The position numbers were made by a program, and so were the translations under genes. A stretch of 64,000 bases of DNA. Source: Patescibacteria group bacterium UBA5194 (GTDB taxonomy: Bacteria; Patescibacteriota; Gracilibacteria; BD1-5; UBA6164). Of this stretch, positions 7,845-59,812 are shown piece after piece (within the stretch, counting starts at the first letter, position 1; every line of letters begins with the position of its first letter). Location of the stretch: assembly GCA_002412935.1 (NCBI GenBank), contig DHWA01000013.1:6954-70953 (forward strand), in the 5' to 3' direction. The notes under the pieces are model-generated. The model was not told the origin of the DNA. It saw only the letters and a list, made by a program, of their open reading frames with translations, and searched no databases.

Positions 7845-7938
7845 TGTCATTCTGAGGCTTTTACGAAGAATCCCTTAAGCATTTTTTTATGATATAATCC
7901 TAGTTTAAGGGATTCTTAATTTCATTTAGTATAATACA
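7845..7938. mobile_element. TGTCAT-family MITE-like palindromic element, right arm decayed
   Basis: Left arm is TGTCATTCTGAGGCTTTTACGAAGAATCCCTTAAG. The right arm TTAAGGGATTCTTAATTTCATTTAGTATAATACA is a degraded inverted copy. Confidence 0.6.
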
Positions 7939-11881: not shown

Positions 11882-11916
11882 TGTCATACTGAATGAAACG
11901 AAGTATCCCTTTAACA
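11882..11916. repeat. solo left arm of a TGTCAT-family element
   Basis: TGTCATACTGAATGAAACGAAGTATCCCTTTAA sits 10 nt after the ABC stop codon. No matching right arm nearby. Confidence 0.5.
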
Positions 11917-13115: not shown

Positions 13116-15437
13116 ATGCCCTACTCAGAATCAGATACAAGAGCAAAATATATAGACCCTCAACTTAAAAATAGTAACTGGGAAGAAATAAGTATTATAA
13201 GAGAATACTATTTTACTGACTGAAGAAAAGCACTTTGATGAAAAAGATGAAAAAGAAAATTTGCTGATTATATACTGACTTTCAAATGAGTAAAACTTGC
13301 AATCATAGAAGCTAAAAAAGAAGAATTAGACCCAACAGAATGACTAGAACAAGTTAAAGAATACTGTAAAATCCTTAATTTGAGATTTGTTTATTCTACA
13401 AATTGAAAAAAGATTTATGAATTTGATTTAGAAACTTGAAAAGGAGATTTTGTAGATAAGTACCCTGCTCCAGAAGAACTATATAATAAAGTTTACTCAG
13501 AAAGAAATCTTGCAAAAGAAACTCTTCTAAGTGAACCTTTTTTATTGTCTGATAAAAAACCTAGATATTATCAAGAAATAGCTATAAATAAGACTATGGA
13601 AGCTATTTGAAACTGAGAAAATAGGATTTTACTAACTCTAGCTACTTGAACTTGAAAAACTGTTATAGCTTTTCAAACTGTTTATAAACTTTTCAATGCT
13701 AGATGGTCAAAAGATGGTATTTGAGTAAGAAGACCTAGAATATTATTTTTAGCAGATAGAAATATACTTGTAGACCAAGCAATGAATACTTTTAATCCAC
13801 TTGAAAAAGATATATTAAAAATCAATTGAGTTGAAATCAAAAAAAGATGATGAAAAGTCCCTATGAATGCAAATATTTTCTTTGCTATTTATCAAGCTTT
13901 GGTTTGATGAGTAGATGAAGAAAATCCAGATGAAGTAATTGAAGCATACTATAACAGATATCCAAAAGACTTTTTTGATATGATAATTATAGATGAATGT
14001 CATAGAGGCTGAGCTAGAGAAGATTGAAACTGGTCAGAAATATTAAAATACTTTGATAGTGCAATTCATCTATGACTTACAGCAACACCAAAAAGAGATG
14101 ACAATATAGATACATATAGATATTTTTGAAAACCTATTTATGAATACAGTTTAAAAGCTTGAATAGATGATTGATTTTTAACACCTTTTAAAATAAAAAG
14201 AATCAAGTTAAATATAGATGAACTAGTTTTAAATACTTGAGACCAGATAATAGAATGAACAGCTAAAAAAGATGTTTACTATACAAAAGATATGGAAAGA
14301 GAGATTATAATAGATGAAAGGTCTGATTTAATAGCTCAAACTATTTTACAACAAATCAATAAGATGGATAAAACCATAGTATTTTGTGTAGATCAAAGCC
14401 ATGCACTTAGAATAAGAGATAGTATAAATAAATATAAAACAGTTAAAGACTCTGATTATTGTGTAAGAGTTACAAGTAATGAATGAGAGATATGAAGAAC
14501 TTATTTAGAAAGATTTCAAGATAATGATAAAGATATACCAGTTATTCTTACAAGTTCACAAATGTTAACAACTTGAGTAGATGCCTTAAATGTAAGAAAT
14601 ATAGTACTTGTAAGGAATATTTGAAGCATAGTTGAGTATAAACAAATTATTTGAAGATGAACTCGTATATTTGACTGAAAAGATTATTTTACTATTCTTG
14701 ATTTTGTATGAGCTACAAATGATTTCAAAGATGAAGTTTGGGATTGATGACCAGAAGATGATGATAATTGTCATTCTGAACTTGTTTCAGAATCATCAAA
14801 ATGTAAAAATACTAATTATGAATCTGAAATAAATTCGCAGTGACAAGAAAAAGAAAAAAGATTATATGTTAAATTATGAGATAGTAGAGAAGTAAAAGTA
14901 ATAGATATAGAAACTAGATACCTTGACCCAATTACTTGAAAACACTTGAGTTCAGAAGACTTTTTAAAGAAGATAATTTGAGATTTACCAACTTTTTACA
15001 AAGATGAACATCAATTAAGAGAATTATGGAGTAATCCAGAAACTAGAGATGAATTATTGTATAAATTATCTCAAATATGACTTGATACAGAGCAATTAGA
15101 TGACTTAAAGAGAATATTTGAAGCTGAGGACTCAGATATATTTGATGTACTTGCTCACTTGTCTTTTGATAGTGATATAAAGTACAGGTCTGAAAGGTCT
15201 ATTTATTGAGAAGAAATAGTTGATAATTACGAAAGTATTAAAGCTCGTGAATTTTTAGAATTTTTACTTACTTTGTATGTGAAAAATTGAATTTTAGAGT
15301 TTAGAAAGGATAAATTAGCAAGTAAAATAGCTTTGTTTAATAAATGACAATCAAGAGAGATAGCAAGTGAATTTGGTTGAATTGAAGAGCTTAAAAATGC
15401 TTATTATGAATTGCAAAGGAGTTTATATGTTAAGTAA
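13116..15437 (+). CDS. hsdR: type I restriction enzyme R subunit
   Basis: 773 aa. N-terminal nuclease region, helicase motif I LATGTGKT, motif II DECHRG, TATP, QMLTTGVD, and an EcoEI-type C-terminal region. Confidence 0.9.
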
Positions 15438-24564: not shown

Positions 24565-24592
24565 AAAGAAGTATGTAAAAATACTTCTTTTT
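24565..24592 (+). terminator. rho-independent terminator after hsdM
   Basis: 10-bp stem AAAGAAGTAT / ATACTTCTTT, 6-nt loop, then TT. Confidence 0.6.
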
Positions 24593-24671
24593 ACTCCCCT
24601 CAAAAATCCATAATTAAATTTGCAAAATTTTATTATTGTATATAATAAGTATATGAAAATATAATTTATTT

Positions 24672-24700
24672 TTGACTTTATACCTAATTTGGAATATACT
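24672..24700 (+). promoter_or_regulatory. sigma70-like promoter candidate, possibly giving a leaderless transcript
   Basis: TTGACT, 17 nt, TATACT. The -10 ends 5 nt before ATG 24705. Confidence 0.3.
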
Positions 24701-24704
24701 GTAT

Positions 24705-25127: not shown

Positions 25128-25803
25128 AGACTTATCAAAATTGATAAACTCAAAAGAATTTGCAGACTATAAAGAAAAAAATTATAGATATATAATTTTA
25201 TGAGAAAAAATCTATGCTAGAAGAAAAGATTTATGATTGACTCAAAGCAAACTTTGAGAACTTTCACAAATCCCACAAAATAAAATAAGTGAATTAGAAT
25301 CATGAACTTATTGAGAACCATGAATTGAAATTATCGAAAAACTTTCAAAAGCTTTAAATATTTGATTAGAATATTTATTTTATGATAGTATTACAAGAAA
25401 AACAGTTGAATTATATAATTATATATTATCAAAACTTGAAAATGTTCCTGATATAATGCAATTTATGAAATTACCATACTTTATAGATTTAAATCTAATA
25501 AAAAATAATTTTAAACAAGCTACAAATTTTGAATATATTAGATGGAATTACTGACCATTTGATAAAAAAGTCTATGTTTATCAGACATTATTTTCTTTTA
25601 ATAATGAGAAATGAATAAAGAATCTAAAGTTTATTTATTTATCTAATGAAGAAATAAAAATCATTGATGAAACACTTTCTGCCTTACCAAAAGAAAATTG
25701 AGAAGAATTAAAAAAACTTTCTTATGAAACAAAACCAATGAAAAATTTATGAGTTTGTTTGTGAGATAATAAATGTATGTGAAAAGTTTTAGAATTGAAA
25801 TAA
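25111..25803 (+). CDS. XRE-HTH plus DUF4065 (Panacea/SocA-like) antitoxin-type protein
   Basis: 230 aa. HTH segment LGLTQSKLGELSQIPQNKISELESG, then a DUF4065-like C-domain. Overlaps the toxin relic by 17 nt. Confidence 0.65.
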
Positions 25804-26071
25804 TATTTTATAGAATCAATTTTCTTAGTTTATCCTAATTTATTAACTACTATTTATGAATTCAAAAGAACAATCATACAAAGAAATAGTTATTTCTTGA
25901 ATATTTGAAGATTTGAAAGATGAACAAGATTTGTATGATGAATATAAATAAACTAAAATATTAAATCATAGTTATTTCCATTTTAAAATATGTAGAAGTA
26001 TTTGAATGAAGATTGGTTAAAGAATAATATAAAATTTTACTTTGACTTTATTTTAAAAAATATTAAACTAT

Positions 26072-26107
26072 TCGTGAAAAATATACATATTACTATGTTT
26101 TTCACGA
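26072..26107. repeat. inverted repeat TCGTGAAAAA-N16-TTTTTCACGA, 30 nt upstream of fic
   Basis: Perfect 10-bp arms. Nearly the same palindrome recurs at 26977-27016. Confidence 0.6.
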
Positions 26108-26136
26108 TAAAATTTTAAATATTTATTTTTAAAATT

Positions 26137-27018
26137 ATGATAAATCAAACTACAAAAGATAAAATTATTAAACTTTTTGAACAATATGAAATTATTAGTG
26201 AGTGAAAAGAAAAAGCTTTAAAAGAGATAACTTTGGCTGAAATTCCAGAAATGATTTATAATTCAAATGCAATAGAAAATTCCACTTTAAGTTTAAAAGA
26301 TACAGAAGATATTTTGATTTATAATACTATAAAAAAAGATTATAATATAAGAGAAGTATATGAAGCAAAAAATTTGGCTGAAATCACTAAAGAGCTTTTA
26401 GAAACAGATACAGAAAAACTTTCTATTTCTTTAATTTTATCTTTACATAAAACGTTACTAACTCATATCAACAATAGTTATGCTTGAAGGTTTAGAAGAA
26501 ATGATGAATGGGTAAGGATATGAACTCACTTGTGAGCAAATCCTGATTTTGTAGATAATTTAATGAACAAATTAATAAAAGATTACAATAATAAAAAACA
26601 AGAATATTTTTTAGATAATATAGCTTATTTTCATGCAGAATTTGAAACAATTCATCCATTTTGTGATTGAAATGGTAGAATTTGAAGAGTACTTATAAAC
26701 TTTCAACTTATGCAACTTTGATATCCACCAATTATAGTACAAAATAAAAGTAAAAGACAAGATTATTATCCAAATTTTCAAAAATACCAAGATAAAGATA
26801 AATTTGATTCTTTTACAGAGGTTTTTTCTTTACTTTTAATAGAATCATTAAATAAGAGAATAACTATATTAACCTCAAAAAAAATAGTTACTTTAAGTGA
26901 ATGGTGTAAGAAAAATAATAAAAATGCTCCAAGTTATTTAAATAAGGCCAAAAGACAAACTATCCCAGCATTTAGAATTCGTGAAAAATGGTCTATTTCC
27001 GAAGATTTTCACGAATAA
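26137..27018 (+). CDS. fic: Fic-domain protein (class II: own inhibitory helix)
   Basis: 293 aa. Active-site HPFCDGNGRIGR at 26653-26688. N-terminal inhibitory motif SNAIEN at 26263-26280. Confidence 0.85.
26977..27016. repeat. inverted repeat ATTCGTGAAAA-N18-TTTTCACGAAT at the 3' end of fic
   Basis: Perfect 11-bp arms sharing the core of the 26072-26107 palindrome. Overlaps the last codons of fic. Confidence 0.6.
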
Positions 27019-27050
27019 ATCTAAACTTTAGTAATAATTAAAACTAACAA

Positions 27051-27188
27051 AATAACCTATAACTTATTTGGATAGTAAAAGTAGAAGAAAACAAAGAGAA
27101 TGATAAATTTATAAATGGTTTACTAGGAGAATTAAATATGATTTTGAAATAATAGATTTAAAGAAGTATGTAAAAATACTTCTTTTTT
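27051..27188 (+). pseudogene. internally deleted relic of the hsdM 3' end plus a copy of its terminator
   Basis: AATAACCTATAACTTAT..TTGGATAGTAAAAGTAGAAGA..GATAAATTTATAAATGGTTTACTAGGAGAATTAAATATGATTTTGAAATAATAGATTTAAAGAAGTATGTAAAAATACTTCTTT parallels the last roughly 270 bp of hsdM (24300-24592), with two internal deletions. Confidence 0.65.
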
Positions 27189-27326
27189 TATACAATATCA
27201 TACATTAAATGTATAATTAATTATCTATTTTATACCTATATAGCATACTTTTGTAATAAAAAGTTGCTTTTTTGTTATTTTTGTATACATTACTAATACA
27301 ATTATATACCTTATTAAAATATTATT

Positions 27327-28100
27327 ATGACTACAAATTCTATAAATCTAGGTGATAAACTTAAAGATTTGAGAAATAAAACTTGAGTTTCTCAAGAAGA
27401 TGTTGCCAATTATATTTGAGTTAGTAGATTAACCTATATAAATATAGAAAATTGAAAAAGAGAAGTGAAAGACTTAGAGATTAAGAAAATCGCTGAATTT
27501 TTTGAGAAATCAATAAGTGATTTTATAGAGAAAAAACAAGAAATAAATAGTACCAGTGATAAAAATTATAAATTGAAACAATTAATATTGTATATATCAA
27601 AAAAAACTCAAAATATAGATAGTTTTTGAAAAACAGTTTTAAATAAATTGCTGTATTTTAGTGATTTTAATTATTACGAATGGACTTATGAAACTATTAC
27701 ATGAGTTAATTATAAGAAATTACCTTTTTGACCAGTTCCTGAAAATATATCTGATATTCTTGATGAGATGGTAAGTGAATCATTGATAGCTATTACAGAA
27801 ACTACATATCATAATTACACTCAACAAAAAATTATTCCTTTAGTTGAAGCAAATTTAGATTTTTTAAATGATATTGATGAAAAATCTGCTAAAAAAACTA
27901 AATACGATAATTTACCTAAATCAATTCAGATTATTAATGATGTCTTAAATAAGTTTAAACATCATAAAGCAAGTGAAATTAGCGAATGGTCTCATATGGA
28001 TACACCATATAAGTCTAGCAAAAATATATGAGATATTATTAGACCCTGACTTGTTTTTTATAGAAGTGAGCCTTTTATAGTTAATCCTAATAATTTATAA
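27327..28100 (+). CDS. XRE-HTH plus DUF4065 (Panacea/SocA-like) antitoxin-type protein, second copy
   Basis: 257 aa. HTH segment VSQEDVANYIGVSRLTYINIENG, then KLLYFSDFNYYEW, typical of DUF4065. Contains track ORF 27768-28031. Confidence 0.65.
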
Positions 28101-31450: not shown

Positions 31451-33274
31451 ATGCAAAAACAACAAATAATCGACGAAATAATAAACTTATCTTTAGAAAG
31501 AAACATCACCACTAAAGATGAATTTCATAAAACCCAAAATGAAGTCTACAAAAAATACAAACTTCCAGAGTGAATTACTGGAATTGATATCCTTGAAAGA
31601 TACAACGAACATGTAAAAAATAAAACAGTTAGAGATAGTAATGATTTCAGAAAAGTTTTGAGAAAGAGATGAGTAAGAAGCCTTTCTGGAGTAACTGTTA
31701 TTTCCCTACTTACAGAGTTTTTTGGTTGTCCTGGAAAATGTATCTATTGTCCAACATTTGAATGATTACCAAAATCATATATCCCAAATGAGCCTGCAGT
31801 TCAAAGAGCAAAACTAAATAAATTTGATCCAATTATGCAGATTCATAATAGACTTAGATCACTTGAAATCACAGGACATAAAATAGAAAAAAATGATGTG
31901 AGAATCATAGGTGGGACTTGGAGTTGTTATCCGAAAAAATATCAAGAAGATTTTATAAAAGGTATCTATGATGCTTTCAATACTTTTGATGAGATGAAAG
32001 AACAAATAGATGAAAATGTAATTTCAGGTGATAAGTTTTCAAGCTTTACAATGAAAGAATGATACAATTTAAAATTATCAAAAGACTTAGAAGAAGCAAA
32101 GAAAATCAATGAAACAACAAAATATAGAGTCATCTGAATTGCAATTGAAACTCGCCCAGATTGGGTAAATATAGAAGAAATTGCTAGACTAAGAAGATAT
32201 GGAGTTACAAGAGTTGAAATAGGTTATCAGACAACTATTGATGAAATAAATATATTAAATAAAAGATGACATACAAACAAAGAAAGTATTCTTGCTACTA
32301 AATTACTCAAGGATGCATGATTTAAAGTTGTTGCTCATATAATGCCCAATTTACTTTGAAGTACTCCTGAGCTTGATAAAAAAGCATTTAAAGAAGTATT
32401 TGAGAACCCCGACTTTAGACCAGATGAGTTAAAAATCTATCCTATGGTCGTTACAGATAAATCAGAATTAACAGAAATATGGAAAAAATGATGATTTAAA
32501 GCATACGATGATGAGACACTTATAAATTTGATGTGTGATTTAGAAGAAATGGTTCCAGAATATGTAAGGATAAATAGAACTTACAGAGACATCCCAGCTT
32601 CACAAATACTTCACGGTTCAACTCTCAGTAATCTAAGACAAATAGTTGAAAATAGAATGAAAGATAAATGAATAAAATTACAAGACATAAGAAATAGAGA
32701 AATAAAAGACAAAATCAATGACCCATCTAGAGCAGTTTTACACACTATAAAATATGAAGCAAGTGGTTGAACAGAATATTTTATGACTTTTGAAGATAGT
32801 GAAGATAGAACTATTTTTAGTTTACTTAGGTTGAGATTGCCAGGAAAAAGTTTTTCTGTCATCCTCGGGCTTGACCCGGGGATCTCTAGCAAGGAAAAAC
32901 TAGAAAAAGAAAGTAATGGCACAGATATTTTAAAAAGCACTTTATCAAAAGATGAATTTATAAATTCTAGTGAGTTCATAGATTCCGGATCAAGTCCGGA
33001 ATGACAAAACTGCGAATCTATTCTCCCAGAACTATCTTGAGCAGCACTAATCAGAGAAATCCACACATTTTGAGATCAATTAAGTATCTGAGAAGTTGGA
33101 AGTACTTTTTGACAACATATAGGTTTTGGAAAACGCCTTATTGCTGAATCTGAAAAAATAGCAATAGAAAATTGATTCAAAAAAATGGCTGTTATAGCCT
33201 GAGTTTGAGTAAGAGAATATTATAAAAAGAGATGATATGAGCTAGAATGAGAGTATATGGTAAAAAGTTTGTAA
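31451..33274 (+). CDS. Elp3-like radical-SAM / GNAT acetyltransferase-domain protein, carrying a 50-codon repeat-derived insertion
   Basis: 607 aa. CPGKCIYCP radical-SAM cluster motif. C-terminal GNAT region (HIGFGKRLI). Joins track ORFs 31835-32062 and 32783-33004. Confidence 0.85.
32857..33006. mobile_element. TGTCAT-family element inserted in frame in the elp3-like CDS (150 bp = 50 codons)
   Basis: Left arm is TGTCATCCTCGGGCTTGACCCGGGGATCT. Right arm is AGATTCCGGATCAAGTCCGGAATGACA. Translated as VILGLDPGISS...DSGSSPEGQ. Confidence 0.75.
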
Positions 33275-43354: not shown

Positions 43355-43459
43355 TGTCATTCCCTAGAAATAGGGAATCTTCCTTATATTGCATCTAATA
43401 TTATAATCATAGACATTTTTAATACAAGGTAGATTATCGGGTCAAGCCCGATAATGACA
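43355..43459. mobile_element. TGTCAT-family element with non-identical (hybrid) arms
   Basis: Left arm is TGTCATTCCCTAGAAATAGGGAATCTTCC. Right arm is TAGATTATCGGGTCAAGCCCGATAATGACA. Intergenic, between yidC and rnpA. Confidence 0.7.
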
Positions 43460-43465: not shown

Positions 43466-43915
43466 TTATCATTTTATGTTCATCATTTTTTTCAATAAAA
43501 ATTTCACATCATTATCAAATCAATTTATACTCTCTAAATTATTTTTTTCAAGTTTAGTTTGTTTTTTTAGAACAAAAATTAGGTCATAGTGAATTGATAG
43601 TTTAGAGTTGTCAGTTTGGAATTGTCATTGCGAGGTACGAAGCAATCCATTCTCTATATTGTTTCAAGTTTCCTGGATTGCTTTGCTATCGCTCGCAATG
43701 ACATATGATGTTACCATATCATAAAATCTTCTTCTAAAAAAGTTTCTTTTTACGCTTGAATCTACATTTTTTCATGAAATTATAATTGCAAATCTATTAT
43801 GTTTCAATTTATTTTTATTATAATTCAAAACTAATCAATATGAAAAAAAAGGTTTTCAATATTTCAAAACCTTTTTTACTTCATTTTCCTTCAATCTATA
43901 ATCTTTAGAAATCAT
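43466..43915 (-). CDS. rnpA: RNase P protein component, carrying a 27-codon repeat-derived insertion
   Basis: 149 aa. KNVDSSVKRNFFRRRFYD matches the RNR-motif region. Lies 14 nt downstream of rpmH. Confidence 0.75.
43623..43703. mobile_element. TGTCAT-family element inserted in frame in rnpA (81 bp = 27 codons)
   Basis: TGTCATTGCGAGGTACGAAGCAATCC...GGATTGCTTTGCTATCGCTCGCAATGACA. Read on the minus strand as VIASDSKAIQETGNNIENGLLRTSQGQ. Confidence 0.75.
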
Positions 43916-47246: not shown

Positions 47247-47349
47247 TGTCATACTCGTGCTCACGTGCCCCTTGTGGGTATGACACGAGTATCCAGTGAA
47301 CTAAATATTGCTTGTACACTAGATTATCGGGTCAAGCCCGATAATGACA
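47247..47349. mobile_element. TGTCAT-family element with hybrid arms
   Basis: Left arm is TGTCATACTCGTG...CACGAGTATCC. Right arm is TAGATTATCGGGTCAAGCCCGATAATGACA. Lies in the ftsA/ftsE divergent intergenic region. Confidence 0.7.
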
Positions 47350-49585: not shown

Positions 49586-49661
49586 CTAAAACAATTATTG
49601 TTATAATTATTTTTAGATTAAAGTCAAAAAAGATTTAGAATTTATTTATGGAATACTCCCT

Positions 49662-49769
49662 TGTCATCCTGAGAGTAACGAAGGATCCCTTGAATACGGT
49701 ATTTTCTAAGTTTCATTATAAATATAGTAAACCGTGTCTAAGGGATTCTTCATTTCATTCAGAATGACA
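49662..49769. mobile_element. complete TGTCAT-family element (intergenic)
   Basis: TGTCATCCTGAGAGTAACGAAGGATCCCTTGAA...CTAAGGGATTCTTCATTTCATTCAGAATGACA, with about 32-nt inverted arms. Confidence 0.8.
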
Positions 49770-49793
49770 GAACTCTCAAGTTCTACCCCCTAA

Positions 49794-50354
49794 TTATTCT
49801 ATTCTCATCAACTTTTCCTTAATTATTTGATCAAATCAACTCAATTTAAAAATATCTTTTAGTTTATTTTTATTTATAAACTTCAATACTTTTTGAACTA
49901 ATTCATCTGGGTGCTTCAAATCTAATTCTCAGAGTAGATTAATTACTTTTAATCTGGATAAAATCAATTTCATTTCATCTATATTTTTTGTTTCATTTAC
50001 TTCCTCAACTATTTCAAATACATCTTTGAATACAAGTCATTCTGGAAGTTTATGATAAACTATTCAAATTATTATTATATATTCATTTATAGTAGCATAA
50101 TCCCTTCATTCATATCTAAACTCTGATTTTATTTTTATATTTTTGATTTTGTGAATATCTCTTTGTTCTTTTGTTTCTATTTCACAATTTATTATATATC
50201 CTAGATCCATTGTTTTCTCTTTTTTATGCTCTTTTTTTTGTACTTTTATTCTACCATAATCAAAAGTAAAGATATCGTAGATAAAATCCTTGTCTTTTAC
50301 CTTAGATATTTTTAAAATTATTGCTTTTGTTTTAAAAAGAGTCATAAATAACAT
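49794..50354 (-). CDS. recO: DNA repair protein RecO (short form)
   Basis: 186 aa. N-terminal OB-fold-like TKAIILKISKVKDKDFIYDIFTFDYGRIKV. Extends track ORF 50106-50354 through a TGA. Confidence 0.65.
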
Positions 50355-50596
50355 TTAATTACTAATAATTAAAATGATATTTTTTTATTTTCATTTAGCA
50401 AATAATTTTCATATAAGTGCTTTAATAAAAGCTCCTTATGTGTATCGAAATACCCAATATTTTATATATAAAATACTTTTATAAAAAAGTCCAAGCAAAA
50501 ATATACAAAAAATTGGATTTTTTTAAACTTTTTCTATACAATACTCTAGCTTTAATTTTAAAAGCTTATATTTTAATTTATAACTTTATATTTAAT

Positions 50597-51334
50597 ATGA
50601 TAAATATTAAGAAACAATGATTTACATTGGTGGAACTGATAGTTGTTATCACAATCCTTGCTATCCTTTGAAGTATAGCTTTTATATCTTTACAAGGTTA
50701 TAGTTCAGATGCTAGAAACTCTAAAAGAACTAGTGATCTAAGTTCTATACAAAGTTCTCTAACTGTTAAACAAACTTCTGGAACTGATCTAAATGCATTT
50801 GTAGATTCAAATGCTAGAAATCTCCTTACTACTGTTCCTATAGCATGAGTTACTAATGCACCTGCTGGTACTTATAAAGCTTGAACTATTAATTACAATG
50901 CCTTGGATATGAAACAAGCTGATTTCCAAGATCCTCAATCTAATGTTTCATATGCAATATGAATAACTACTTGAGCTGGTTGAGCATATCAAATAGCTGC
51001 ATCTATGGAACAATCAGGATGATCAAAAGTTGCAAGAGTAGTTTGAAATTGGATGAATAGAAGTGCTACAACTTATAACACTGTTGCTACTTGAAGTACT
51101 GTTGTATTAAATTCACCTGGTGATGTAAACAGATTTAAACTTGGTGATACTTTAAATTTATGAGGAGCTATTACATGAACTGTAAATAGAGTTTCTGCTG
51201 ATGGTATGACTTTAACTTTATCAACAGGTTCAACTAGTACTGCTATAAGACTTAATTTTGCTGAATCTGAAGGACTTATAGGTAGTGGTAGTACAATTTT
51301 AGTTAAAGATAATTTATCTGTTCTTCCTTACTAA
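50597..51334 (+). CDS. type IV pilin / pseudopilin
   Basis: 245 aa. Prepilin motif KKQG-FTLVELIVVITILAIL, with the invariant cleavage-site Gly encoded by TGA 50618-50620. Confidence 0.8.
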
Positions 51335-51360
51335 TCTTTAGTAAATTAAACTTAAATTTA

Positions 51361-51398
51361 AAAAAGAACTTTCCGATGGAAAGTTCTTTTTTTTATGG
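51361..51398. terminator. bidirectional rho-independent terminator
   Basis: 13-bp stem AAAAGAACTTTCC / GGAAAGTTCTTTT flanked by A- and T-runs. Sits between convergent genes. Confidence 0.65.
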
Positions 51399-51406
51399 AT
51401 ATTTTT

Positions 51407-52327
51407 TTACAACTCCACTTTTTCCTTATACTCTTTCATAAATCTCTTTTCAAAATCTTTTTTTGTGAAAGTATGATTTTGAGTACCATACTTTTCTATA
51501 CAATAACTCGCTGTTAGACATCACAATTTTGCTGAGACTTCCCAAGTATAGGAATTATGTAATCAAGTTATTAATCAAGCTCTAAATGCATCTCAAGCTC
51601 AAGTTGGGTCAGCTACATTTATATTTTTTAGAGCATTTACTTTTTGTTCTTTTTTCTTGTCTATTATTTTTACTCCATCTTTTCACATAGTTACTATTAT
51701 CTTATCGAGTTTTTTCTTTAAATCTTCTTCACTCATAGAAGTCTTATCTAAAAATAAACTGTATTCATAATCATTTAATATAAGATAATTACTATATTCC
51801 AGACAATCTATCAATTCTTCTTTTGTAAAACTTGTAATCATCTGCCCTGGATCAAAAAAAGTTTTTATTTTTAATTCATAACTTTGTTTTAGATGTTTCA
51901 TCATAACTATTTTATCATTTGGTGAAACAATACTATAAGATATATCTATTGCTGGTACATTTTGAGTATTTTCAGCACTTAAAGCACCAGGATAAAATGC
52001 ATTGATTTGATTATTATCTTTGTCATTAATTATATAACAAGAAGCAGTTTGCATATCTTTGATTTTATACAAGTTAGAATAATCTATCAATTTACTTTTT
52101 TCTTTAAAATCATCTCAGACTACTCAAAGCAGTATAGATTTTTCTCATAAAAGTCCTATATTGTAAGCTATATTGTGTCCTGTTCATCATTTTTGTTTTG
52201 TAAGACTTGGTGTGAAAAAGCTCACATTGAGCATATGTATCTTATCAGGTAATATATGGTTTTTAAAACTATCTCAAAAATCCATTATATAATCATAAGC
52301 CATCGATCCAGAAACAAGTATTTTCAT
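51407..52327 (-). CDS. PfkB-family carbohydrate/nucleoside kinase
   Basis: 306 aa. GGTGHNIAYN N-motif and DPTGAGDAF catalytic motif. Extends track ORF 51683-52090. Confidence 0.8.
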
Positions 52328-52369
52328 AAAAAAAATTGGTAAAATTATAAAGTTTTAAAAGTAAATGTA

Positions 52370-52509
52370 TGTCATTCCCGAGAAGTCGGGAATCTTCATT
52401 ATATTGTAGCTAAGAAATAGTGGATTAAATATTTTTTAATATTTTTAGTTCAGTTTTATTGATTGACTATTTTTATACAAAGTAGATTCCCGCCTTCGCG
52501 GGAATGACA
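52370..52509. mobile_element. complete TGTCAT-family element, CCCG-hairpin arm type
   Basis: TGTCATTCCCGAGAAGTCGGGAATCTTC...GTAGATTCCCGCCTTCGCGGGAATGACA. The left half is about 90 percent identical to 53999-54132. Confidence 0.8.
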
Positions 52510-52643
52510 ATAAAGAAAAAAATTAAATTTTTAACTATCACTTTTTATTTTAAAGCTTTTTAAATATAAACAAAAATATATTATTTCAAAGTTTATTTTG
52601 CTTTTTTTATATTTGATTTATACTTAAGAAATATTTACTATCT

Positions 52644-52733
52644 TGTCATCCTGAATATAATGAAGGATCCCTTAAACTTGGTATTTTCACAAAACAATGT
52701 AAATGGATTCTTCGCAAAAGCTCTACAATGACA
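52644..52733. mobile_element. complete TGTCAT-family element (90 bp)
   Basis: TGTCATCCTGAATATAATGAAGGATCCCTTAA...GGATTCTTCGCAAAAGCTCTACAATGACA. Confidence 0.75.
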
Positions 52734-52762
52734 ACCGAATATTAATCTCTAACACAAATTAA

Positions 52763-53989
52763 ATGAAAATCGCAATACTTCACGAAATGCTTATAAAACT
52801 TGGTTGAGCTGAAAAAGTTGTAGAAAAAATTGCTTCTATTTTTCCTGATGCTCCGATTTTTACTCTGATTTACGATGAAGAAAAAGTATGAAAAATATTT
52901 CCAAAAGATAAAGTAAAAGTAGCTTCATCTACTCAGAGAATTTATAATATTACAAAAAATCAAAGATTTTGTCTTCCTTTTATGCCTAGAGCTGTTGAAA
53001 GTCTTGATTTTTCAGATTATGATGTAGTTATTTGTTCTTCTTCTGGATTTGCACATTGAGCAATTACCAAACCAGAAACTAAATTTATCGTTTACTATCA
53101 TTCTCCTGCAAGATATCTATGGGATTGGACCAATGAATACAAAAAAGATATTGGTTTTGATAAGTGATTAAAATGATATATATTAAATAAATTATTTTTG
53201 AGTCTTAGAATGTGGGATGTAATTGCATCATCTAGAGTGGATATAAATCTAGCAAATAGTAAAAATTCTGCTTCTAGAGTACAAAAATATTACAGAAAAA
53301 CTTGTGAAATACTTTATCCTCCTATCGAAACAAAGAGATTTAAGAAAGAAATCAATAAAGTATGAGTTTTGGAAACTATACTGTCATCCTGAACGAATGT
53401 GAAGGATCCCTTAAGCAAGGTAATCACTAAAAAATCAAGTTCAAGGGATTCTTCGTTACTCTCAGAATGACAAACAGTAAATAATATAACATATTACATA
53501 ATTATATCAGCACTAACCGAATTTAAAAAAATAGAAATAGCAATAGAATGATTCAACAAAATGCCTGACAAAAATCTGGTTATAATTTGAGATTGAAATT
53601 ATAGAGAAACTTTGAAAAATAAAGTAAATTGAAATAATATAATTTTTACATGAGCTAGATACTCTGATGAACTTGTAGAGTTAGTTCAATGAAGTCTAGG
53701 GCTCATATTTCCATGAGAAGAAGATTTCTGAATAGTTCCAATTGAAGCAATGGCAGCAGGAAAACCTATCTTTGCATATGCTTGAGGATGATTACTTGAA
53801 ACTGTAATTGATAACAAAACTTGAAGCTTTTTCCAAGATAAGACTTGATATGATTTTGTCCCAAAATTTGCAGAATTTGATCAAAAAGTTAACTCATGAT
53901 TTTTTGACAAAAAATTTATAACAAAACATGCCCTAAAATTTGATGAATCTTTATTTGAGAAAAGGATTAAAGAGATTGTAAATTGATAA
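52763..53989 (+). CDS. GT4-family glycosyltransferase carrying a roughly 30-codon repeat-derived insertion
   Basis: 408 aa. EEDFGIVPIEAMAAGKPIFAY is the GT-B C-domain motif. The frame is uninterrupted through the inserted element. Confidence 0.8.
53382..53472. mobile_element. TGTCAT-family element inserted in frame in the glycosyltransferase CDS
   Basis: TGTCATCCTGAACGAATGTGAAGGATCCCTTAAGC...CAAGGGATTCTTCGTTACTCTCAGAATGACA. Translated as LSSGTNVKDPLSKVITKKSSSRDSSLLSEGQ. Confidence 0.75.
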
Positions 53990-53998
53990 ACTAATATA

Positions 53999-54132
53999 TG
54001 TCATTCCCGAGAAATCGGGAATCTTCATTATATTGTAGCTAAGAAATAGTGAATTAATATTATTTTTAGATACTACTATTTATCTATTATTGTTATTATA
54101 CAAGGTAGATTCCCTTCTTCAAGGGAATGACA
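53999..54132. mobile_element. complete TGTCAT-family element, CCCG-hairpin arm type
   Basis: TGTCATTCCCGAGAAATCGGGAATCTTC...GGTAGATTCCCTTCTTCAAGGGAATGACA. Confidence 0.8.
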
Positions 54133-54181
54133 TACTTTTCTATTTTTATAATGCATTTCACGATGTGTATCATAGAGATTT

Positions 54182-54288
54182 TTAAGGGGGTAACTTCGCC
54201 GTAATACGAAGCACAATAAAAATAGTCTCATCAGCGAAGATTTACCCTCTTAAATTCTTTTTGCTACTTTTTGGAATCAAAAAGTAAG
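54182..54288. mobile_element. short relative of the 7946-8264 element
   Basis: TTAAGGGGGTAACTTCGCC...GCGAAGATTTACCCTCTTAA palindrome, followed by ATTCTTTTTGCTACTTTTTGGAATCAAAAAGTAAG, which resembles the right TIR of the 7946-8264 element. Confidence 0.5.
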
Positions 54289-54310
54289 AGATAAGTAAAT
54301 ACAATATAGT

Positions 54311-54386
54311 AAATGGATTGCTTCGAAAAAACTCGCAATGACAAAAAGTAAATACAAGGAAGATTCCCGCCTTCGCGGGAATGACA
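54311..54386. repeat. two solo right arms of TGTCAT-family elements
   Basis: AAATGGATTGCTTCGAAAAAACTCGCAATGACA (54311-54343) and GGAAGATTCCCGCCTTCGCGGGAATGACA (54358-54386). Confidence 0.65.
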
Positions 54387-54390
54387 TTAA

Positions 54391-54422
54391 TTCCTAAATT
54401 CTATATTCTACATTCTTTATTC
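54391..54422. repeat. NNATTCT heptamer run (TTCCTAAATTCTATATTCTACATTCTTTATTC)
   Basis: Ends at the recR stop codon. Shares TTCCTA-ATTCTATATTCT-CATTCT with 45675-45700. Confidence 0.5.
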
Positions 54423-54424
54423 AT

Positions 54425-55033
54425 CTAAATCTCCTTCCTCTCCTTTATAGCATTCAATATAGTAATATTATCCGCATATTCAATATATCCTGAGCTTAAT
54501 CATCTACTCAAACGAGTTATTTTAACCTTGTAACTTAATCAAATTTTACTGATTTCTTCCTTTATGTAAGCTGTTGTAGCTTCTCATTCTATGTTTGGAT
54601 TTGTAGCTATCAAAAGCTCTATTTTATTTTCACTATTTTCTATCCTTGCAAACAATTTTTTGAAGTTTAAATCAGCAGCAAAAACTCAATTAATCGGAGA
54701 AATTGATCACCCAAGTATATGATAAACTCAATTGTATCATCCTGTTTGTTCTATCGTAAGTAAATCTAAATATTCTTCAACTACACAAATCATATTTTTT
54801 TCACGAATTACAGAAGCGCAAATCTTGCAAGATTCTTGACCTGCATTCATAAGAGATCCACATATAGGGCACTTAGATATTTTTGATTTTAAATCATCCA
54901 AACTACTTTTAAAATTTTCTATATAATCTGATTTTGCGTTTAACAAAAAAAAAGCCAATTTTGTAGCAGTCTTTTCTCATATTCAAGGCAATAAACTTAT
55001 GTTATTTATCAATCTTTTTAGAACTTCGGGCAT
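54425..55033 (-). CDS. recR: recombination protein RecR
   Basis: 202 aa. HhH LPGIGEKTA, C4 zinc finger CPICGS...CKICAS, Toprim region. Extends track ORF 54737-54958. Confidence 0.85.
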
Positions 55034-55060
55034 TTTTTTAAATTAGATTATAGTATTTTT

Positions 55061-55082
55061 TGCATTCTACATTCTTTATTCT
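55061..55082. repeat. NNATTCT heptamer run (TGCATTCTACATTCTTTATTCT)
   Basis: Lies 28-50 nt upstream of the recR start on the minus strand, next to a TATAAT box. Confidence 0.45.
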
Positions 55083-55176
55083 AAAAATCAAAATTTTTAA
55101 TTAAAAATTAGACACAAAAAAAAGTTTATATATAATGAAAAAATATAATTTATTTTAATTCATAATAAATATAAAA

Positions 55177-55608
55177 ATGAAAGAAGTTACAAGATGTATA
55201 ATAAAAAATAAAGAGTGAAATATACTTTTAATAAGACATAAATGATCTGAATCATGGACTTTGCCCGGATGACATGTAGAAAATAAAGAAAACATATATA
55301 ATGCAATAAAAAGAGAAATAAAGGAAGAACTCGGTGTAAGTCTAAAAATACTTTGATATAAAATATGATTTGAAGTAAAAAAAATAAAAGAAAAACCACT
55401 ACCACTATGTGTATACAAAGTAGATTATACAAATAGAAAATGAAAAAAAGTAACAAAACTTGAATACATATTTCTAGGTAAAATAAAAGATGAAATAATA
55501 AAAACTCAAATAGATGAAGTTGATGAATTTAAATGGTTTTCTGTAGATGAAATAGAAAATCTAGAAAATACTTTTGATCAAATTAAAGAAATTATAAAAA
55601 TTGTATAG
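55177..55608 (+). CDS. NUDIX hydrolase
   Basis: 143 aa. Nudix box GGHVENKENIYNAIKREIKEELG, with the second Gly encoded by TGA. Confidence 0.8.
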
Positions 55609-55613
55609 ATTTT

Positions 55614-55707
55614 TGTCATTGCGAGTTTTTACGAAGCAATTCAGAAATCATTGATTTAACAATAAAACACTATTTAAGGGATTCTTCGCTAATCGCTCAG
55701 AATGACA
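55614..55707. mobile_element. TGTCAT-family element with arms from two different subtypes
   Basis: Left arm TGTCATTGCGAGTTTTTACGAAGCAAT (GCAA type). Right arm TTAAGGGATTCTTCGCTAATCGCTCAGAATGACA (GGATCCC type). Confidence 0.7.
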
Positions 55708-57865: not shown

Positions 57866-59812
57866 TTATCTATCGTATTTTTTCTTCAAATCTTGTAGAG
57901 TTAATTCAGAAACAGAAGGTCTTCAATGTGGACAAGTTGAACTATATGACAAGACACTGTCATTAAGTAATTTATTCATCTCAAATAGATTTAATTTATT
58001 ACCGAATTTGATTGCTGATCTACAAGCTGTATAAGCACATATTTTATTTCTTACTTCCTCTAAATTCATAGATTTTCAAGTATTAAATTCTCATATATCA
58101 CTAATTATTCACAAAAAAATGTTTTTTATATCTTCTTTTTTAATAAAATTTGGAATAGCACTTAAAAGTACACTTGAAGTAGACAATATTTCAAAATCAA
58201 ATCCCATATCCAAAAAGATTTGTCTATATTGTGTCAATATCGAAATTTCTTTTCCAGTAAGATTTAAATTTTCTTGAATTAAAAGTTGTTGAGATTGTGT
58301 ATCTAGATCTTTTTTTATAAGTTTTTCATAAATTATTCTTTCTGCTAGTGCATGCTGATCAAGGATTATCAATTTATCATCTTTTTCAACAATTATATAA
58401 CTATTAAAAACTTGCCCTACTATTTTTCATAGAGATGTATAATGTAAATCAGAATTTACACCTAAATCACTTCAAGTAAAATCTTTTAAAAAATGTTTTG
58501 TAAACTCAATGGAATCTTTTATTGTATTTTGTGCTGGATTTGTAGATACATCTTTATATGGAGAATATGATTTGAATTTTGTTCCGGAACCTGTGTAATA
58601 TATATTATGTCATTCCCTTGAAGAAGGGAATCTTCATTGTATTGTTTCCTTTTGTCATTCACTATGTTGTCATTGCGATACTGCCAGAGTACAGGGAGTA
58701 CGAAGCAATCCATTCACTATATTGTTTCATGTTTTCTGGATTGCTTCGTTACTCTCGCAATGACAGTTTTCTTCTCAATTATCACTTTCATCTATATTAA
58801 CCAAACTACTATTTTCCAACTTACTCAAAATAGCATTATAAAAAGCTCTGTATATTTCTTGTTCTCTTGCAAACCTGATTTCTTGTTTTCTTGGATGTAC
58901 ATTTACATCGATTTCTTCGGGATTTATTTCTAAATTTAATATATATCCTGGAAAATTATTGTGTGGGATGAACCTACGATATGCTTCATTTATTGCTCTA
59001 TAAATAAGAGGTGAACTTATAATTCTCCCATTTACAAATATTGCTTGTCTATTTTTATTTAGAAAATGAATCTTTGGAGTTGAGATAAATCAATTTATAT
59101 TAAGTCATGAAAAAGAAAAATCTATACCTAACAAATTATTATAAAATTCTTCTCAATATATATTATAGATTCTTGTTTTTAAATCTTCATTTTCTTTGTA
59201 CTTAAAAATTATTTTTCAATTATTTACAAATTCAAATCAGATTTGTGGATGAGCAAGTGCAATATTATTTAGAAAATCACTTATGTGACTATATTCTGTT
59301 TTTTCTTTTTTAAGGTAGTTAATTCTTGCTGGAGTATTAAAAAATAATTCTTTAACAATTATTTTAGTTCATATGTTTATACTTTCTTCTTTTATATCTA
59401 ACTTTTCTCATCATATAACTTCTAAAGAGTATCATCCTTGTCATCCTGAACTTGATTCAGGATCTCTTGTTTTTGAAATTATCTTAAATTTTGAAACAGA
59501 TGATATAGACGCCAAAGCTTCTCACCTAAATCAAAAAGTCATAACTTTATGTAAATCTTCTAGATTTTTTATTTTTGAAGTAGTATGTTTTTCTGTAAGT
59601 ATAATTAAATCTTCTTTTTCTATTCCTACTCAATTATCACTTATAATTATCTCATCTATTCAACCTGAAGTGATTTCAACCTTTATACTAGTGCTTCAAG
59701 CATCTATACTATTTTCTACAAGTTCTTTAACTACTGAAACTGGTCTTTCAACTACTTCTCAAGCTGATATCTGATTTATAAGTATTTTATCTAGTTTAAT
59801 AATTTTTGACAT
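57866..59812 (-). CDS. mutL: DNA mismatch repair protein MutL with repeat-derived insertions
   Basis: 648 aa. Frame checked codon by codon. GHKL motifs VVKELVENSIDAG, DNGVGI, GFRGEAL. C-terminal domain ILDQHALAERIIYE and CPHGRP. Confidence 0.85.
58608..58765. mobile_element. composite of one solo arm, one arm fragment and one complete TGTCAT-family element inside the mutL linker
   Basis: TGTCAT starts at 58608, 58653 and 58668. The complete element 58668-58765 has arms TGTCATTGCGATACTGCC...ACGAAGCAATCC and GGATTGCTTCGTTACTCTCGCAATGACA. The whole stretch is translated in frame. Confidence 0.75.
59439..59466. repeat. solo TGTCAT-family arm inside the mutL N-terminal domain
   Basis: TGTCATCCTGAACTTGATTCAGGATCTC, read on the minus strand as RDPESSSGGQ. 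Confidence 0.5.

What the first reader, a model, noticed from the sequence alone, without database searches (positions are those of the whole stretch)
49662..55707. The element terminus ATGACA is always read as A-TGA-CA, and several intergenic copies keep that frame open
Seen in sequence:
- In all seven coding occurrences, the TGA inside the terminal ATGACA is an in-frame codon. These are Elp3-like (TGA at 33002-33004), glycosyltransferase (53468-53470), rnpA (TCA 43625-43627, minus strand) and mutL (58610, 58655, 58670 and 59441). They represent five independent insertion sites. The same frame at all five has a chance expectation of about 1 in 81.
- I translated three intergenic copies by hand in that same frame. 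49662-49769 (35 codons), 52644-52733 (30 codons) and 55614-55707 (30 codons) are all free of TAA and TAG despite AT-rich interiors. They give related peptides (V/S-IL..KDPL....(R/G)(D/F)(S/F)..SEG).
- The CCCG-type copy 52370-52509 is not open in this frame.

Established knowledge: under the standard code this frame would end every host protein at the element border.

Inference: at least some subtypes are adapted to being translated, and specifically to a UGA = Gly host. Code 25 may be what makes coding-region colonisation by these repeats survivable.
Basis: partly seen in the sequence, partly recalled or inferred. Interest (0 to 1): 0.75.

Follow-up and report, generated by a model that had tools for sequence, protein, structure and literature searches.

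The report
Palindromic repeats read through UGA-glycine
Small selfish palindromic DNA repeats of a known kind (REP/RPE-like) sit in frame inside housekeeping genes of this UGA=glycine bacterium and are always read through the TGA in their conserved end, which only this genetic code allows, but nothing shows that the repeats evolved for this.

Summary
Every element-terminal ATGACA on the sense strand of a gene is read A|TGA|CA: 7/7 in the window and 16/16 in 257 kb from about 8 related Gracilibacteria. The sites are Elp3, RNase P protein, a GT4 glycosyltransferase, the MutL linker, the MutL N-domain and TsaD.

The elements are TGTC-headed members of the published CGTC-tagged REP superfamily, which includes Rickettsia RPE-4/6. 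Most are head-to-head dimers. The same hairpin occurs in nearly all standard-code phyla, so the ATGACA terminus is ancestral and is not an adaptation to code 25.

In standard-code hosts genic copies exist but are read AT|GAC|N or ATG|ACN. Code 25 is therefore not needed for genes to tolerate these repeats; it only opens a third frame.

The adaptation idea is weak:
- Intergenic copies are open no more often than shuffles predict.
- Spacer pN/pS is about 1.
- An intergenic relative carries stops in that frame.

The frame constancy probably reflects few founding events. New elements reuse the same junction, 5' of an existing TGACA. Each subfamily is open in only one sense frame. A residual bias toward this frame remains unexplained.

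Verdict: a new member of a known kind, of moderate interest.

The parts
31451..33274 (+). Elp3 (radical SAM/GNAT tRNA-modification enzyme), host gene of E1
   Evidence: Intact ORF under code 25. Pfam Radical_SAM 92-307 and Radical_SAM_C 324-404. 120 orthologs named Elp3.
32857..33006 (+). E1: 150-nt head-to-head REP dimer read V-I-L-G...S-S-P-E-G-Q; its TGA is at 33002-33004
   Evidence: Only this sense frame is open. An ortholog (L210) lacks exactly 150 nt here and reads AAA AGC TGA CAA AAC.
43466..43915 (-). rnpA (RNase P protein), host gene of E3
   Evidence: The Pfam Ribonuclease_P match covers aa 4-67 only and stops two residues before the insert, which begins at aa 70. Relatives are 121 aa and lack the element.
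43623..43703 (-). E3: 81-nt REP dimer (ATTGC-type) read VIASDSKAIQETGNNIENGLLRTSQGQ
   Evidence: Folds as DNA at -20.1 kcal/mol, z = -5.9.
52763..53989 (+). GT4-family glycosyltransferase, host gene of E8
   Evidence: Pfam Glyco_transf_4 14-192 and Glycos_transf_1 244-362; the insert lies at aa 207-237, between the two domains. Orthologs of 375-376 aa lack it.
53382..53472 (+). E8: 91-nt REP dimer ('KDPL' type) read SSGTNVKDPLSKVITKKSSSRDSSLLSEGQ, with two in-frame TGA codons
   Evidence: Shared with relative L122, with 2 aa differences.
57866..59812 (-). mutL, host of a composite insert in the linker and of a solo REP in the N-terminal domain
   Evidence: Pfam HATPase_c_3 26-120, DNA_mis_repair 215-332, MutL_C 465-606. 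Alignment A1.
58608..58765 (-). MutL-linker composite: full dimer E11 (58668-58765), a 15-nt head remnant (58653-58667) and a half element (58608-58652), giving three in-frame TGA-CAx
   Evidence: Relatives carry different elements at the identical right junction. The half element is present in the window and L124 and absent in L121 and L122.
59439..59464 (-). Solo REP hairpin in the MutL ATPase domain, read RDPESSSGGQ
   Evidence: Absent from L121, L122 and L124, which read IESLSG or FESLSG.
14769..14794 (+). Solo REP inside the 773-aa ORF 13116-15437, in TGTCAT orientation, read CHSELVSES
49662..49769 (.). E5: intergenic KDPL-type dimer; only the +A|TGA|CA frame is open
   Evidence: The DnaJ-RecO spacer that carries it is missing in relatives.
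52370..52509 (.). E6: intergenic CCCG-type dimer (stem 8, loop 4); no open frame
   Evidence: DNA fold z = -9.3.
52644..52733 (.). E7: intergenic KDPL-type dimer with a degenerate 3' hairpin; 4 of 6 frames open
53999..54132 (.). E9: intergenic CCCG-type dimer; no open frame
54317..54386 (.). Two solo 3'-type REPs (54317-54343 and 54363-54386)
55614..55707 (.). E10: intergenic chimeric dimer (ATTGC 5' REP, ATTCT 3' REP); 3 of 6 frames open
   Evidence: Absent from the NUDIX-Wzy spacer of L121 and L122.
43355..43459 (.). E2: intergenic dimer; its 3' REP is ATTATCGGG (stem 9, loop 5), whose TAA closes the TGA frame
47247..47349 (.). E4: intergenic element with the same 3' REP as E2
7845..7873 (.). 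Solo REP just downstream of the ORF ending at 7819
11882..11908 (.). Solo REP 10 nt downstream of the 589-aa ORF ending at 11872

Best explanation
The repeats are TGTC-headed members of the CGTC-tagged REP superfamily, the group that includes Rickettsia RPE-4/6.

Anatomy (shown). Each unit is head TGTC, a hairpin whose stem starts with A-T, and a short tail. Most copies are head-to-head dimers of the form TGTCAT-hairpin-spacer-hairpin-ATGACA.

Location (shown). They are scattered in intergenic DNA. As 3n insertions they also sit in disordered linkers or loops of housekeeping genes, where they are translated as junk linker. Because UGA means Gly in this host, the frame A|TGA|CA through the conserved head is readable, and it adds ...E-G-Q.

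Why the frame is constant (inferred). Three things combine:
1. Junction reuse. New or replacement elements lie immediately 5' of an existing TGACA head, so a site keeps the frame of its first colonisation.
2. Subfamily inheritance. In each genic copy examined in the window the spacer is open in only one sense-strand frame, and every genic copy of a given subfamily found here lies in one orientation and frame. Only insertions in that frame survive.
3. Purifying selection. Stops in essential genes are removed.

The terminus itself is ancestral and is not an adaptation to code 25. How the elements move is unknown.
For: Identity:
- Head, A-T stem start, stems of 8-9 bp with loops of 4-5 nt, tail and head-to-head dimers fit the description of CGTC REPs, including the stated TGTC variant.
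- At least 11 different stem sequences all remain complementary. A synonymous compensatory double change occurs in a genic copy.
- The hairpin is present in more than 120 loci across phyla.

In-frame insertion:
- Host ORFs are intact.
- Orthologs lack the inserts: rnpA 121 aa, GT 375-376 aa, Elp3 559 aa, TsaD 327-334 aa.
- The Elp3 filled site equals the empty site plus exactly 150 nt placed 5' of TGACAA.
- Inserts lie between Pfam domains.
- The REP segment of an Elp3 ortholog has pLDDT below 50 and no secondary structure, while its flanks are confident.

Frame:
- 16/16 genic termini use it.
- Among MutL-linker sequences, 13/106 orthologs show the ..[EQ]G/W-Q signature and 0 show ND or MT signatures.

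Junction reuse:
- Three unrelated elements share the MutL junction ATGACA|A(C/T)AT.
- Two share the TsaD junction.
- Three share the Elp3 junction.

Subfamily inheritance:
- In every genic copy only the used sense frame is open.
- The E1-type element occurs in the same frame in Elp3, TsaD, LigA, UvrB and one more gene.

No adaptation:
- Spacer pN/pS is 0.87-1.21.
- Intergenic openness matches shuffles.
Against: - Even with conservative counting, all three linked components (Elp3/TsaD/LigA/UvrB; rnpA/MutL linker/GT; the MutL N-terminal solo REP) chose the same frame. At subfamily level, 6-7 families did so.
- Intergenic dimers offer the AT|GAC|A frame as often as the TGA frame: 4/14 each in the window, 5/18 against 4/18 when the two L121 dimers are added.
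- The terminal peptides of these two frames are equally hydrophilic (GRAVY -1.10 against -1.08).
- Standard-code hosts tolerate ...GND and ...GMT.
- A residual preference for the TGA frame is therefore not explained.
- The TGACAA at the 'empty' Elp3 site could be either a target or a deletion footprint.
- TsaD empty sites have only K|Q (AAG CAA) with no TGA.
- Translation of the inserts has not been shown experimentally.
- My gene calls are ORF-based.
Confidence: 0.6

Rival explanations
1. Some subfamilies have evolved to be translated in a UGA=Gly host. The terminus and spacer are shaped so that the A|TGA|CA frame yields a benign peptide, and code 25 is what allows these repeats to colonise genes.
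For: - 16/16 genic termini are in this frame.
- The E1-type element gives a recognisable peptide in at least five different genes.
- Its other open frame was not found inside any long protein.
- The TGA-frame terminal module has the fewest stops: 2/39, against 6/39 and 10/39.
Against: - The terminus is identical in standard-code phyla.
- Genic copies exist in standard-code hosts.
- Spacer pN/pS is about 1.
- Intergenic copies are open at the chance rate, and other frames are open equally often.
- An intergenic relative has stops after the shared GISSKEK motif.
- The peptide search was frame-specific, so it cannot count as an unbiased census.
Confidence: 0.12
2. Target-site mechanism as the main cause. 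The elements integrate immediately 5' of a TGACA (REP-head-like) motif. In code-25 genes, permissive Gly-rich loops often carry this motif as TGA-CAA (Gly-Gln), so the frame is set by the target and not by the element.
For: - The Elp3 empty site AAA AGC TGA CAA AAC differs from the filled site by exactly 150 nt placed 5' of TGACAA.
- The rnpA ortholog without the element has AAA TGA CAA at the site.
- The half element in MutL lies directly after a GAATGACAA and ends in GAATGACA.
- Seven of the eight genic termini in the window and its relatives, and the LigA and UvrB copies, are followed by A, giving Gly-Gln.
Against: - Non-element TGACA in long ORFs is in the TGA phase only 33/79 times (ND phase 32, MT phase 14). 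The target alone therefore predicts about 40-55%, not 100%.
- TsaD empty sites lack TGA.
- The MutL N-terminal site has no TGACA in relatives.
- The TGACAA in L210 may be a deletion remnant.
Confidence: 0.2
3. Coincidence of codon composition. ATGACA inside any coding sequence of this genome tends to lie with TGA in frame, because TGA (Gly) and CAA (Gln) are common codons. On this view there is nothing to explain.
For: 24/44 non-element ATGACA in long ORFs are in this phase. Independent events may be as few as three.
Against: - 16/16 termini and 13 MutL orthologs against 0 for the other frames exceed a 55% expectation, unless nearly all events are linked.
- 6-7 distinct subfamilies all use this frame.
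Confidence: 0.08
4. The genic copies are not translated. Either they are removed from the RNA (intron-like) or they mark pseudogenes or assembly artefacts.
For: The elements fold strongly as single strands (z = -4 to -9).
Against: - Inserts are 3n, or the reading frame is otherwise preserved, and they are stop-free only in the host frame.
- The same insertions recur in independent assemblies.
- The window and 18 loci carrying the hairpin match only tRNA and one Flavo-1 RNA in Rfam, none at an element.
- The host genes are essential housekeeping genes conserved on both sides of the insert.
Confidence: 0.03

Closest known systems
CGTC-tagged REPs (Di Nocera, De Gregorio & Rocco 2013, BMC Genomics 14:522; PMC3733652), including Rickettsia conorii RPE-6 (CGTC-1) and RPE-4 (CGTC-4) and Neisseria dRS3
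   Same: - Head tetranucleotide CGTC, 'changed to TGTC ... in many repeats'.
- Stem begins with complementary A-T.
- Stems of 8-9 bp with loops of 4-5 nt.
- Short tail.
- Predominantly head-to-head dimers.
- Intragenic copies are common in DNA replication and repair genes (here MutL, LigA, UvrB).
- No dedicated transposase is known.
- The encoded peptides are literally the same words, for example VIPAKAGI there and VIPAEAGI/VIPEKSGI here.
   Different: - The host is a code-25 CPR bacterium; that paper reported five phyla, mostly alpha-proteobacteria.
- A second hairpin class is present here (5-bp outer stem with a 10-13 nt interior, the TGTCATCCTGAGCGAAGCGAAGGATC type), and it is the form spread across many phyla.
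- Tails are CTT/CTC/CCC and not CCA.
- The 3' head is read A|TGA|CA, which is impossible in the hosts of that paper, where it is read ..GND or ..GMT.
Rickettsia palindromic elements RPE-1 and relatives: 'protein-coding palindromes' (Ogata et al. 2000 Science 290:347; Ogata et al. 2002 Genome Res), as summarised in PMC10969869
   Same: Palindromic repeats of about 100-150 bp are inserted in frame in unrelated housekeeping genes of an AT-rich, reduced-genome bacterium. Each family encodes a conserved peptide, meaning one frame is reused, and the inserts lie at positions compatible with the fold.
   Different: RPE-1 is a different sequence family in a standard-code host. The frame through an element-borne TGA is new. 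I did not test sequence homology to RPE-1.
REPIN/RAYT systems (GTAG-headed REP doublets mobilised by a HUH Y1 transposase)
   Same: Inverted REP doublet architecture, a conserved head tetranucleotide next to a variable hairpin, and single-strand folding.
   Different: The head is TGTC/CGTC and not GTAG. No RAYT or other transposase was found among the eight window ORFs tested. REPINs are almost entirely extragenic.
Opitutus terrae GTAG-17 REP dimers inside genes (Additional file 3 of PMC3733652)
   Same: Dozens of unrelated genes carry the same dimer read in one frame (VAGVADPGPGSASPA). This shows that one frame per subfamily is a general property of intragenic REPs.
   Different: A different head and family, a GC-rich standard-code host, and no stop-codon reassignment involved.

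Membership tests
CGTC/TGTC-tagged REP superfamily | Conserved head tetranucleotide CGTC (often TGTC) at one end of the palindrome | tested here: met
   All termini are TGTC-AT.../...AT-GACA. One copy in L211 has CGTC. A proteobacterial MutL copy has CGTC/GACG.
CGTC/TGTC-tagged REP superfamily | Stem almost invariably starts with complementary A-T at positions 1-2 | tested here: met
   Every terminus found by the ATGACA-anchored search has a stem that starts with AT and ends with AT. The search itself requires this, so it cannot show exceptions; one CGTC copy in a standard-code MutL starts AC.
CGTC/TGTC-tagged REP superfamily | Stem of 8-9 bp and loop of 4-5 nt | tested here: inconclusive
   Met by the CCCG (8/4), CCGG (8/5), ATTATCGGG (9/5) and ATCCTGAA (8/5) types. 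Not met by the ATCCT, ATTCT and ATTGC types, which have a 5-bp outer stem and 10-13 nt between the arms.
CGTC/TGTC-tagged REP superfamily | Short unpaired tail (published consensus CCA) | tested here: inconclusive
   A 3-nt tail is present, but it reads CTT/CTC/CCC (complement aag/gag/ggg/tag).
CGTC/TGTC-tagged REP superfamily | Predominantly head-to-head dimers | tested here: met
   11 dimers with heads outward in the window, against about 6 solo units.
RPE-like protein-coding palindromes | In-frame insertion in conserved genes, absent from orthologs | tested here: met
   Elp3, rnpA, GT, MutL, TsaD, LigA and UvrB.
RPE-like protein-coding palindromes | Insert lies in a surface loop or linker compatible with the fold | tested here: met
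   Positions between Pfam domains. In the AF2 model of an Elp3 ortholog, the insert (residues 468-491) has pLDDT below 50 and no secondary structure, within an otherwise confident fold.
RPE-like protein-coding palindromes | The inserted peptide is actually translated | not testable with these tools
   Needs proteomics. Only ORF integrity and conservation across assemblies are shown.
REPIN/RAYT | GTAG head and a cognate RAYT (Y1 HUH transposase) gene | tested here: not met
   The head is TGTC. No Y1_Tnp or other transposase domain was found in the eight unannotated window ORFs scanned. The rest of the genome was not available.
Classical MITE | Terminal inverted repeats plus a target-site duplication | tested here: inconclusive
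   TIRs are present. No consistent direct repeat flanks the copies. The Elp3 filled/empty pair shows no duplication.
IS200/IS605-derived elements (PATE-like) | Subterminal hairpins, no TSD, and insertion next to a fixed tetra- or pentanucleotide that stays at the empty site | tested here: inconclusive
   TGACA is retained at the Elp3 empty site and there is no TSD. TsaD empty sites lack it. No TnpA was seen.

The most novel reading that the evidence does not exclude
Reassigning UGA to Gly opened a reading frame through the conserved head of an ancient, pan-bacterial selfish palindrome. In code-25 bacteria the repeats then colonise genes preferentially or only in that newly legal frame, perhaps because the head-like target TGACA is now a Gly-Gln codon pair in flexible loops. 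A change of genetic code would thus have reshaped which transposon insertions a proteome tolerates. It would also make such genes unreadable after transfer to standard-code hosts.
Probability: 0.2. Interest if true: 0.7.

Novelty: new member of a known kind. Interest (0 to 1): 0.45.

Why it matters
- It extends 'protein-coding palindromes' (REP/RPE) to Gracilibacteria, a Candidate Phyla Radiation group.
- It shows that the TGTC-headed hairpin is one of the most widely spread short repeats in bacteria.
- It is a concrete case where an alternative genetic code changes the fate of a selfish element: a frame that is a dead end everywhere else is the one used here.
- Practically, these repeats place extra in-frame TGA codons in housekeeping genes. 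Code-11 gene calling chops the genes exactly at the repeat; for example, 73-82 aa 'UvrB' and 'DNA ligase' fragments appear in public metagenome annotations.
- Recurrent insertion at the same linker sites (MutL, Elp3, TsaD) offers natural markers of permissive loops.

Tried and rejected
- Rfam. No family matches the elements in the window or in 18 loci from other phyla.
- Hammerhead-like reading of CUGA...GAA. Rejected by inspection: the core positions do not fit.
- Full-text search for the repeat sequence. It returned only primers or nothing. No paper links Gracilibacteria to such repeats.
- Metagenome scan anchored on MutL, meant to collect code-25 DNA. It returned only standard-code MutL loci of 29-34% identity, because TGA breaks tblastn. 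I used these loci only as a control.
- Hydropathy as the reason for the frame. Rejected for TGA against GAC frames: GRAVY is -1.10 against -1.08. Only the ATG|ACA frame is more hydrophobic (+0.32).
- Selection on the peptide. pN/pS is about 1.
- Excess openness of intergenic copies. Not seen.
- Structure prediction of the window's own Elp3. I used ortholog P0126 instead.
- Clean nucleotide-level empty sites for the intergenic copies. The flanks are too diverged.
- Candidate transposase in the window. None was found.

Full report
**Host and genetic code**

The window is about 25% G+C. With TGA read as a sense codon it contains long intact genes. TGA means Gly: of the 28 in-frame TGA codons in MutL, 22 can be aligned to a standard-code MutL, 12 of them to Gly and none to Trp. 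In the pilin gene (coding from about 50598) a TGA sits at the Gly of the G|FTLVE prepilin cleavage motif (my translation of the sequence). MutL and Elp3 orthologs are annotated as Candidatus Gracilibacteria.

**Check of the observation**

ATGACA is over-represented: 72 matches against 43.9 +/- 6.7 in shuffles. Pairing TGTCAT with ATGACA gives eleven dimers of 81-158 nt, plus solo units.

In the four host genes every element-terminal ATGACA on the sense strand lies in phase A|TGA|CA. The upstream TGTCAT is read in all three phases.

**What the elements are**

Each end has the form TGTC, then a hairpin whose stem begins with A-T, then a 3-nt tail. At least eleven different stem sequences are all self-complementary. 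Examples are ATTCCCGC/GCGGGAAT, ATTCCGGA/TCCGGAAT, ATTATCGGG/CCCGATAAT and ATCCTGAA/TTCAGGAT. The two ends of one element can differ by compensated changes, so it is the local hairpins that are conserved.

[quoted passage not shown] R. conorii RPE-6 and RPE-4 are members.

A second class here has a 5-bp outer stem and 10-13 nt between the arms. It is the AT-rich form of TGTCATCCTGAGCGAAGCGAAGGATC. The loci come from Chloroflexota, Acidobacteriota, Bacteroidota, Clostridia, Planctomycetota, Cyanobacteria, Proteobacteria, Nitrospirota, Saccharibacteria and Parcubacteria, and the copies are usually inverted pairs. The window and 18 of these loci match only tRNA and one Flavo-1 RNA in Rfam, none at an element.

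**The genic copies are real in-frame insertions**

Syntenic loci from relatives were fetched (MutL identity 92% down to 66%). They show the following:
- rnpA is 121 aa without E3.
- GT is 375-376 aa without E8. E8 is shared by the window and L122.
- TsaD is 327-334 aa when empty and 374-378 aa when filled.
- Elp3 is about 559 aa when empty.

At the Elp3 site the filled sequence equals the empty one (AAA AGC TGA CAA AAC) plus exactly 150 nt placed 5' of TGACAA.

The inserts lie between Pfam domains, or in rnpA's case two residues after the point where the domain match ends. In an AlphaFold model of an Elp3 ortholog with a REP dimer, residues 468-491, which are the insert, have pLDDT below 50 and no secondary structure, while the flanks are confident.

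**Extension of the frame rule**

An automatic search looked for any hairpin whose 3' arm ends in the AT of ATGACA, inside the longest code-25 ORFs. Over 257 kb it found 16 sense-strand genic termini, all in phase A|TGA|CA. The 5' termini are read in phases 5:3:3.

Among 106 MutL orthologs, 13 show a ..[EQ]-G/W-Q signature in the linker and none show the ..ND or ..MT signatures.

A peptide search with the E1 translation found the same element in the same frame in UvrB and in NAD-dependent DNA ligase of other Gracilibacteria. I confirmed both at the DNA level. That search is frame-biased. The other open frame of E1 gave only two short ORFs and one chance LRR hit.

**Comparison with standard-code hosts**

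Additional file 3 of the 2013 paper lists REP-encoded residues. 5' ends appear as VIPAKAGI, SFPRKRES or CHSRESGNP. 3' ends appear as ..DSRFRGND (AT|GAC|G) or ..IPAFAGMT (ATG|ACG). The TGA frame is never used.

- a proteobacterial MutL linker (..LDSGLRRNDG);
- a Micavibrio MurB, between FAD_binding_4 and MurB_C (CHSEA...NAQDD);
- an Fe-ADH.

All three are read AT|GAC|N.

Code 25 is therefore not required for genes to tolerate these repeats, and the terminus is not a code-25 adaptation. What differs is that code-25 hosts use the frame that is closed elsewhere, and in this sample they use only that frame.

**Is the element adapted to translation?**

The evidence says no:
- Intergenic dimers are open in the TGA frame 4/14 times in the window, against 4/14 and 2/14 for the other two frames. 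With the two intergenic dimers of L121 the counts become 5/18, 4/18 and 2/18.
- With the terminal modules kept and the interiors shuffled, E5, E7 and E10 are open with probability 0.32, 0.40 and 0.29. Over seven copies, 10 frames are open against 7.7 expected.
- An intergenic relative of the genic E1 subfamily shares the GISSKEK start and then has two stops.
- Between copies in Elp3, LigA and UvrB the 32-codon spacer has pN/pS of 0.87-1.21, so only stops are selected against. The REP stems change by synonymous, compensatory substitutions.

**Why always this frame?**

In each genic copy the used frame is the only open one in that orientation. That is a proximate reason, but it could be either cause or consequence.

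Two kinds of linkage reduce the number of independent events:
1. Shared junctions. Unrelated elements occupy the identical right junction in the MutL linker (three types), in TsaD (two) and in Elp3 (three 5' parts on one 3' REP). They also stack after existing heads, as in ...CAATGACA-ACATAGTGAATGACA-AAAG...GGGAATGACA. A site therefore keeps its first frame.
2. Shared subfamilies. One subfamily spreads to several genes in one frame: E1-type in Elp3, TsaD, LigA and UvrB; ATTGC-type in rnpA and MutL; KDPL-type in GT and MutL.

Linking sites and subfamilies leaves about three independent components. '1 in 81' is therefore too strong. In addition, background ATGACA in ORFs is in this phase 24/44 times.

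A target preference for TGACA is suggested by the Elp3, rnpA and MutL junctions. However, genic TGACA is in the TGA phase only 33/79 times, and TsaD empty sites lack TGA. Hydropathy does not separate the TGA and GAC frames. A residual bias toward the TGA frame remains unexplained.

**Verdict**

This is a known kind of element (CGTC/TGTC REPs; RPE-like protein-coding palindromes) in a new host lineage. It has a code-dependent twist that is real but not shown to be adaptive. How the elements move remains unknown, as in the literature. No transposase was found among the window ORFs tested.

Noticed in passing
window 12081-28100: The ORFs here look like a defence island. Orthologous loci place type I R-M genes (HsdS, HsdM) and Fic here. 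Embedded in it are a 728-aa reverse transcriptase (RVT_1, 18601-20787), two DUF3800 proteins (15443-16072 and 16367-17074), a Bro-N protein (12081-12938) and two HTH+SocA_Panacea antitoxin-like proteins (25111-25803 and 27327-28100).
   Followed up: partly
L121:15795-17084 (GT ortholog); Elp3 orthologs P0124, P0125, P0206; window 54180-54255: A second, unrelated palindromic repeat family also sits in frame in genes of relatives. It has CCCCCTT...AAGGGGG hairpins read as ..NPPTPLYQGGK....SPLDKGGK.. and ..SPLLVGEELRVR... The window has another G/C-cored inverted repeat, GGGGGTAACTTCGCCG...CAGCGAAGATTTACCCTC, between E9 and the solo REPs.
   Followed up: no
L139:~5960-6050 (standard-code proteobacterial MutL): A CGTC-1 REP dimer sits in the MutL linker of a 61% G+C proteobacterium and is read ..SPDSSLRRRPESSSSTNALDSGLRRNDG... 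This is the same protein region as in the window but in the AT|GAC|G frame. The MutL linker therefore appears to be a recurrent landing site across phyla.
   Followed up: partly
P0019 (Gracilibacteria MutL), aligned to window MutL aa 116-127: A 27-aa-plus insertion of a different sequence (..SHSPHSVSTSLQLQDSRASTPSFTCPKGREEATIIDSGG..) lies at the same N-domain loop where the window has its solo REP.
   Followed up: no
L124 and L206 (both from assembly GCA_017973835.1): One MAG contains two different syntenic MutL loci, 85% and 71% identical to the window MutL. The bin probably mixes two related populations.
   Followed up: no
P0241-P0245; L213:10001-10249; L214:872-1093: Public JGI gene calls made with the standard code cut these genes at the TGA of the repeat. 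This leaves 65-82 aa 'hypothetical', 'UvrB' and 'NAD-dependent DNA ligase' fragments that end exactly at ...DSGSSPE.
   Followed up: yes
window 7820-8385: This unusually long AT-rich intergenic region has a 69-nt imperfect inverted repeat (arms 7916-7984 and 8226-8294, 75% complementary) next to a solo REP at 7845-7873.
   Followed up: no
window 47247-47285: The 5' end of E4 is a 39-nt unit, TGTCATACTCGTGCTCACGTGCCCCTTGTGGGTATGACA. It has both heads on one short imperfect palindrome, unlike the other REP units.
   Followed up: no
window 49648-50058: A 136-aa ORF starts inside E5 (MEYSLVILRVTKDPL...) and overlaps the RecO-like gene on the other strand. It is absent from relatives, so it is most likely spurious and E5 is intergenic.
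   Followed up: partly
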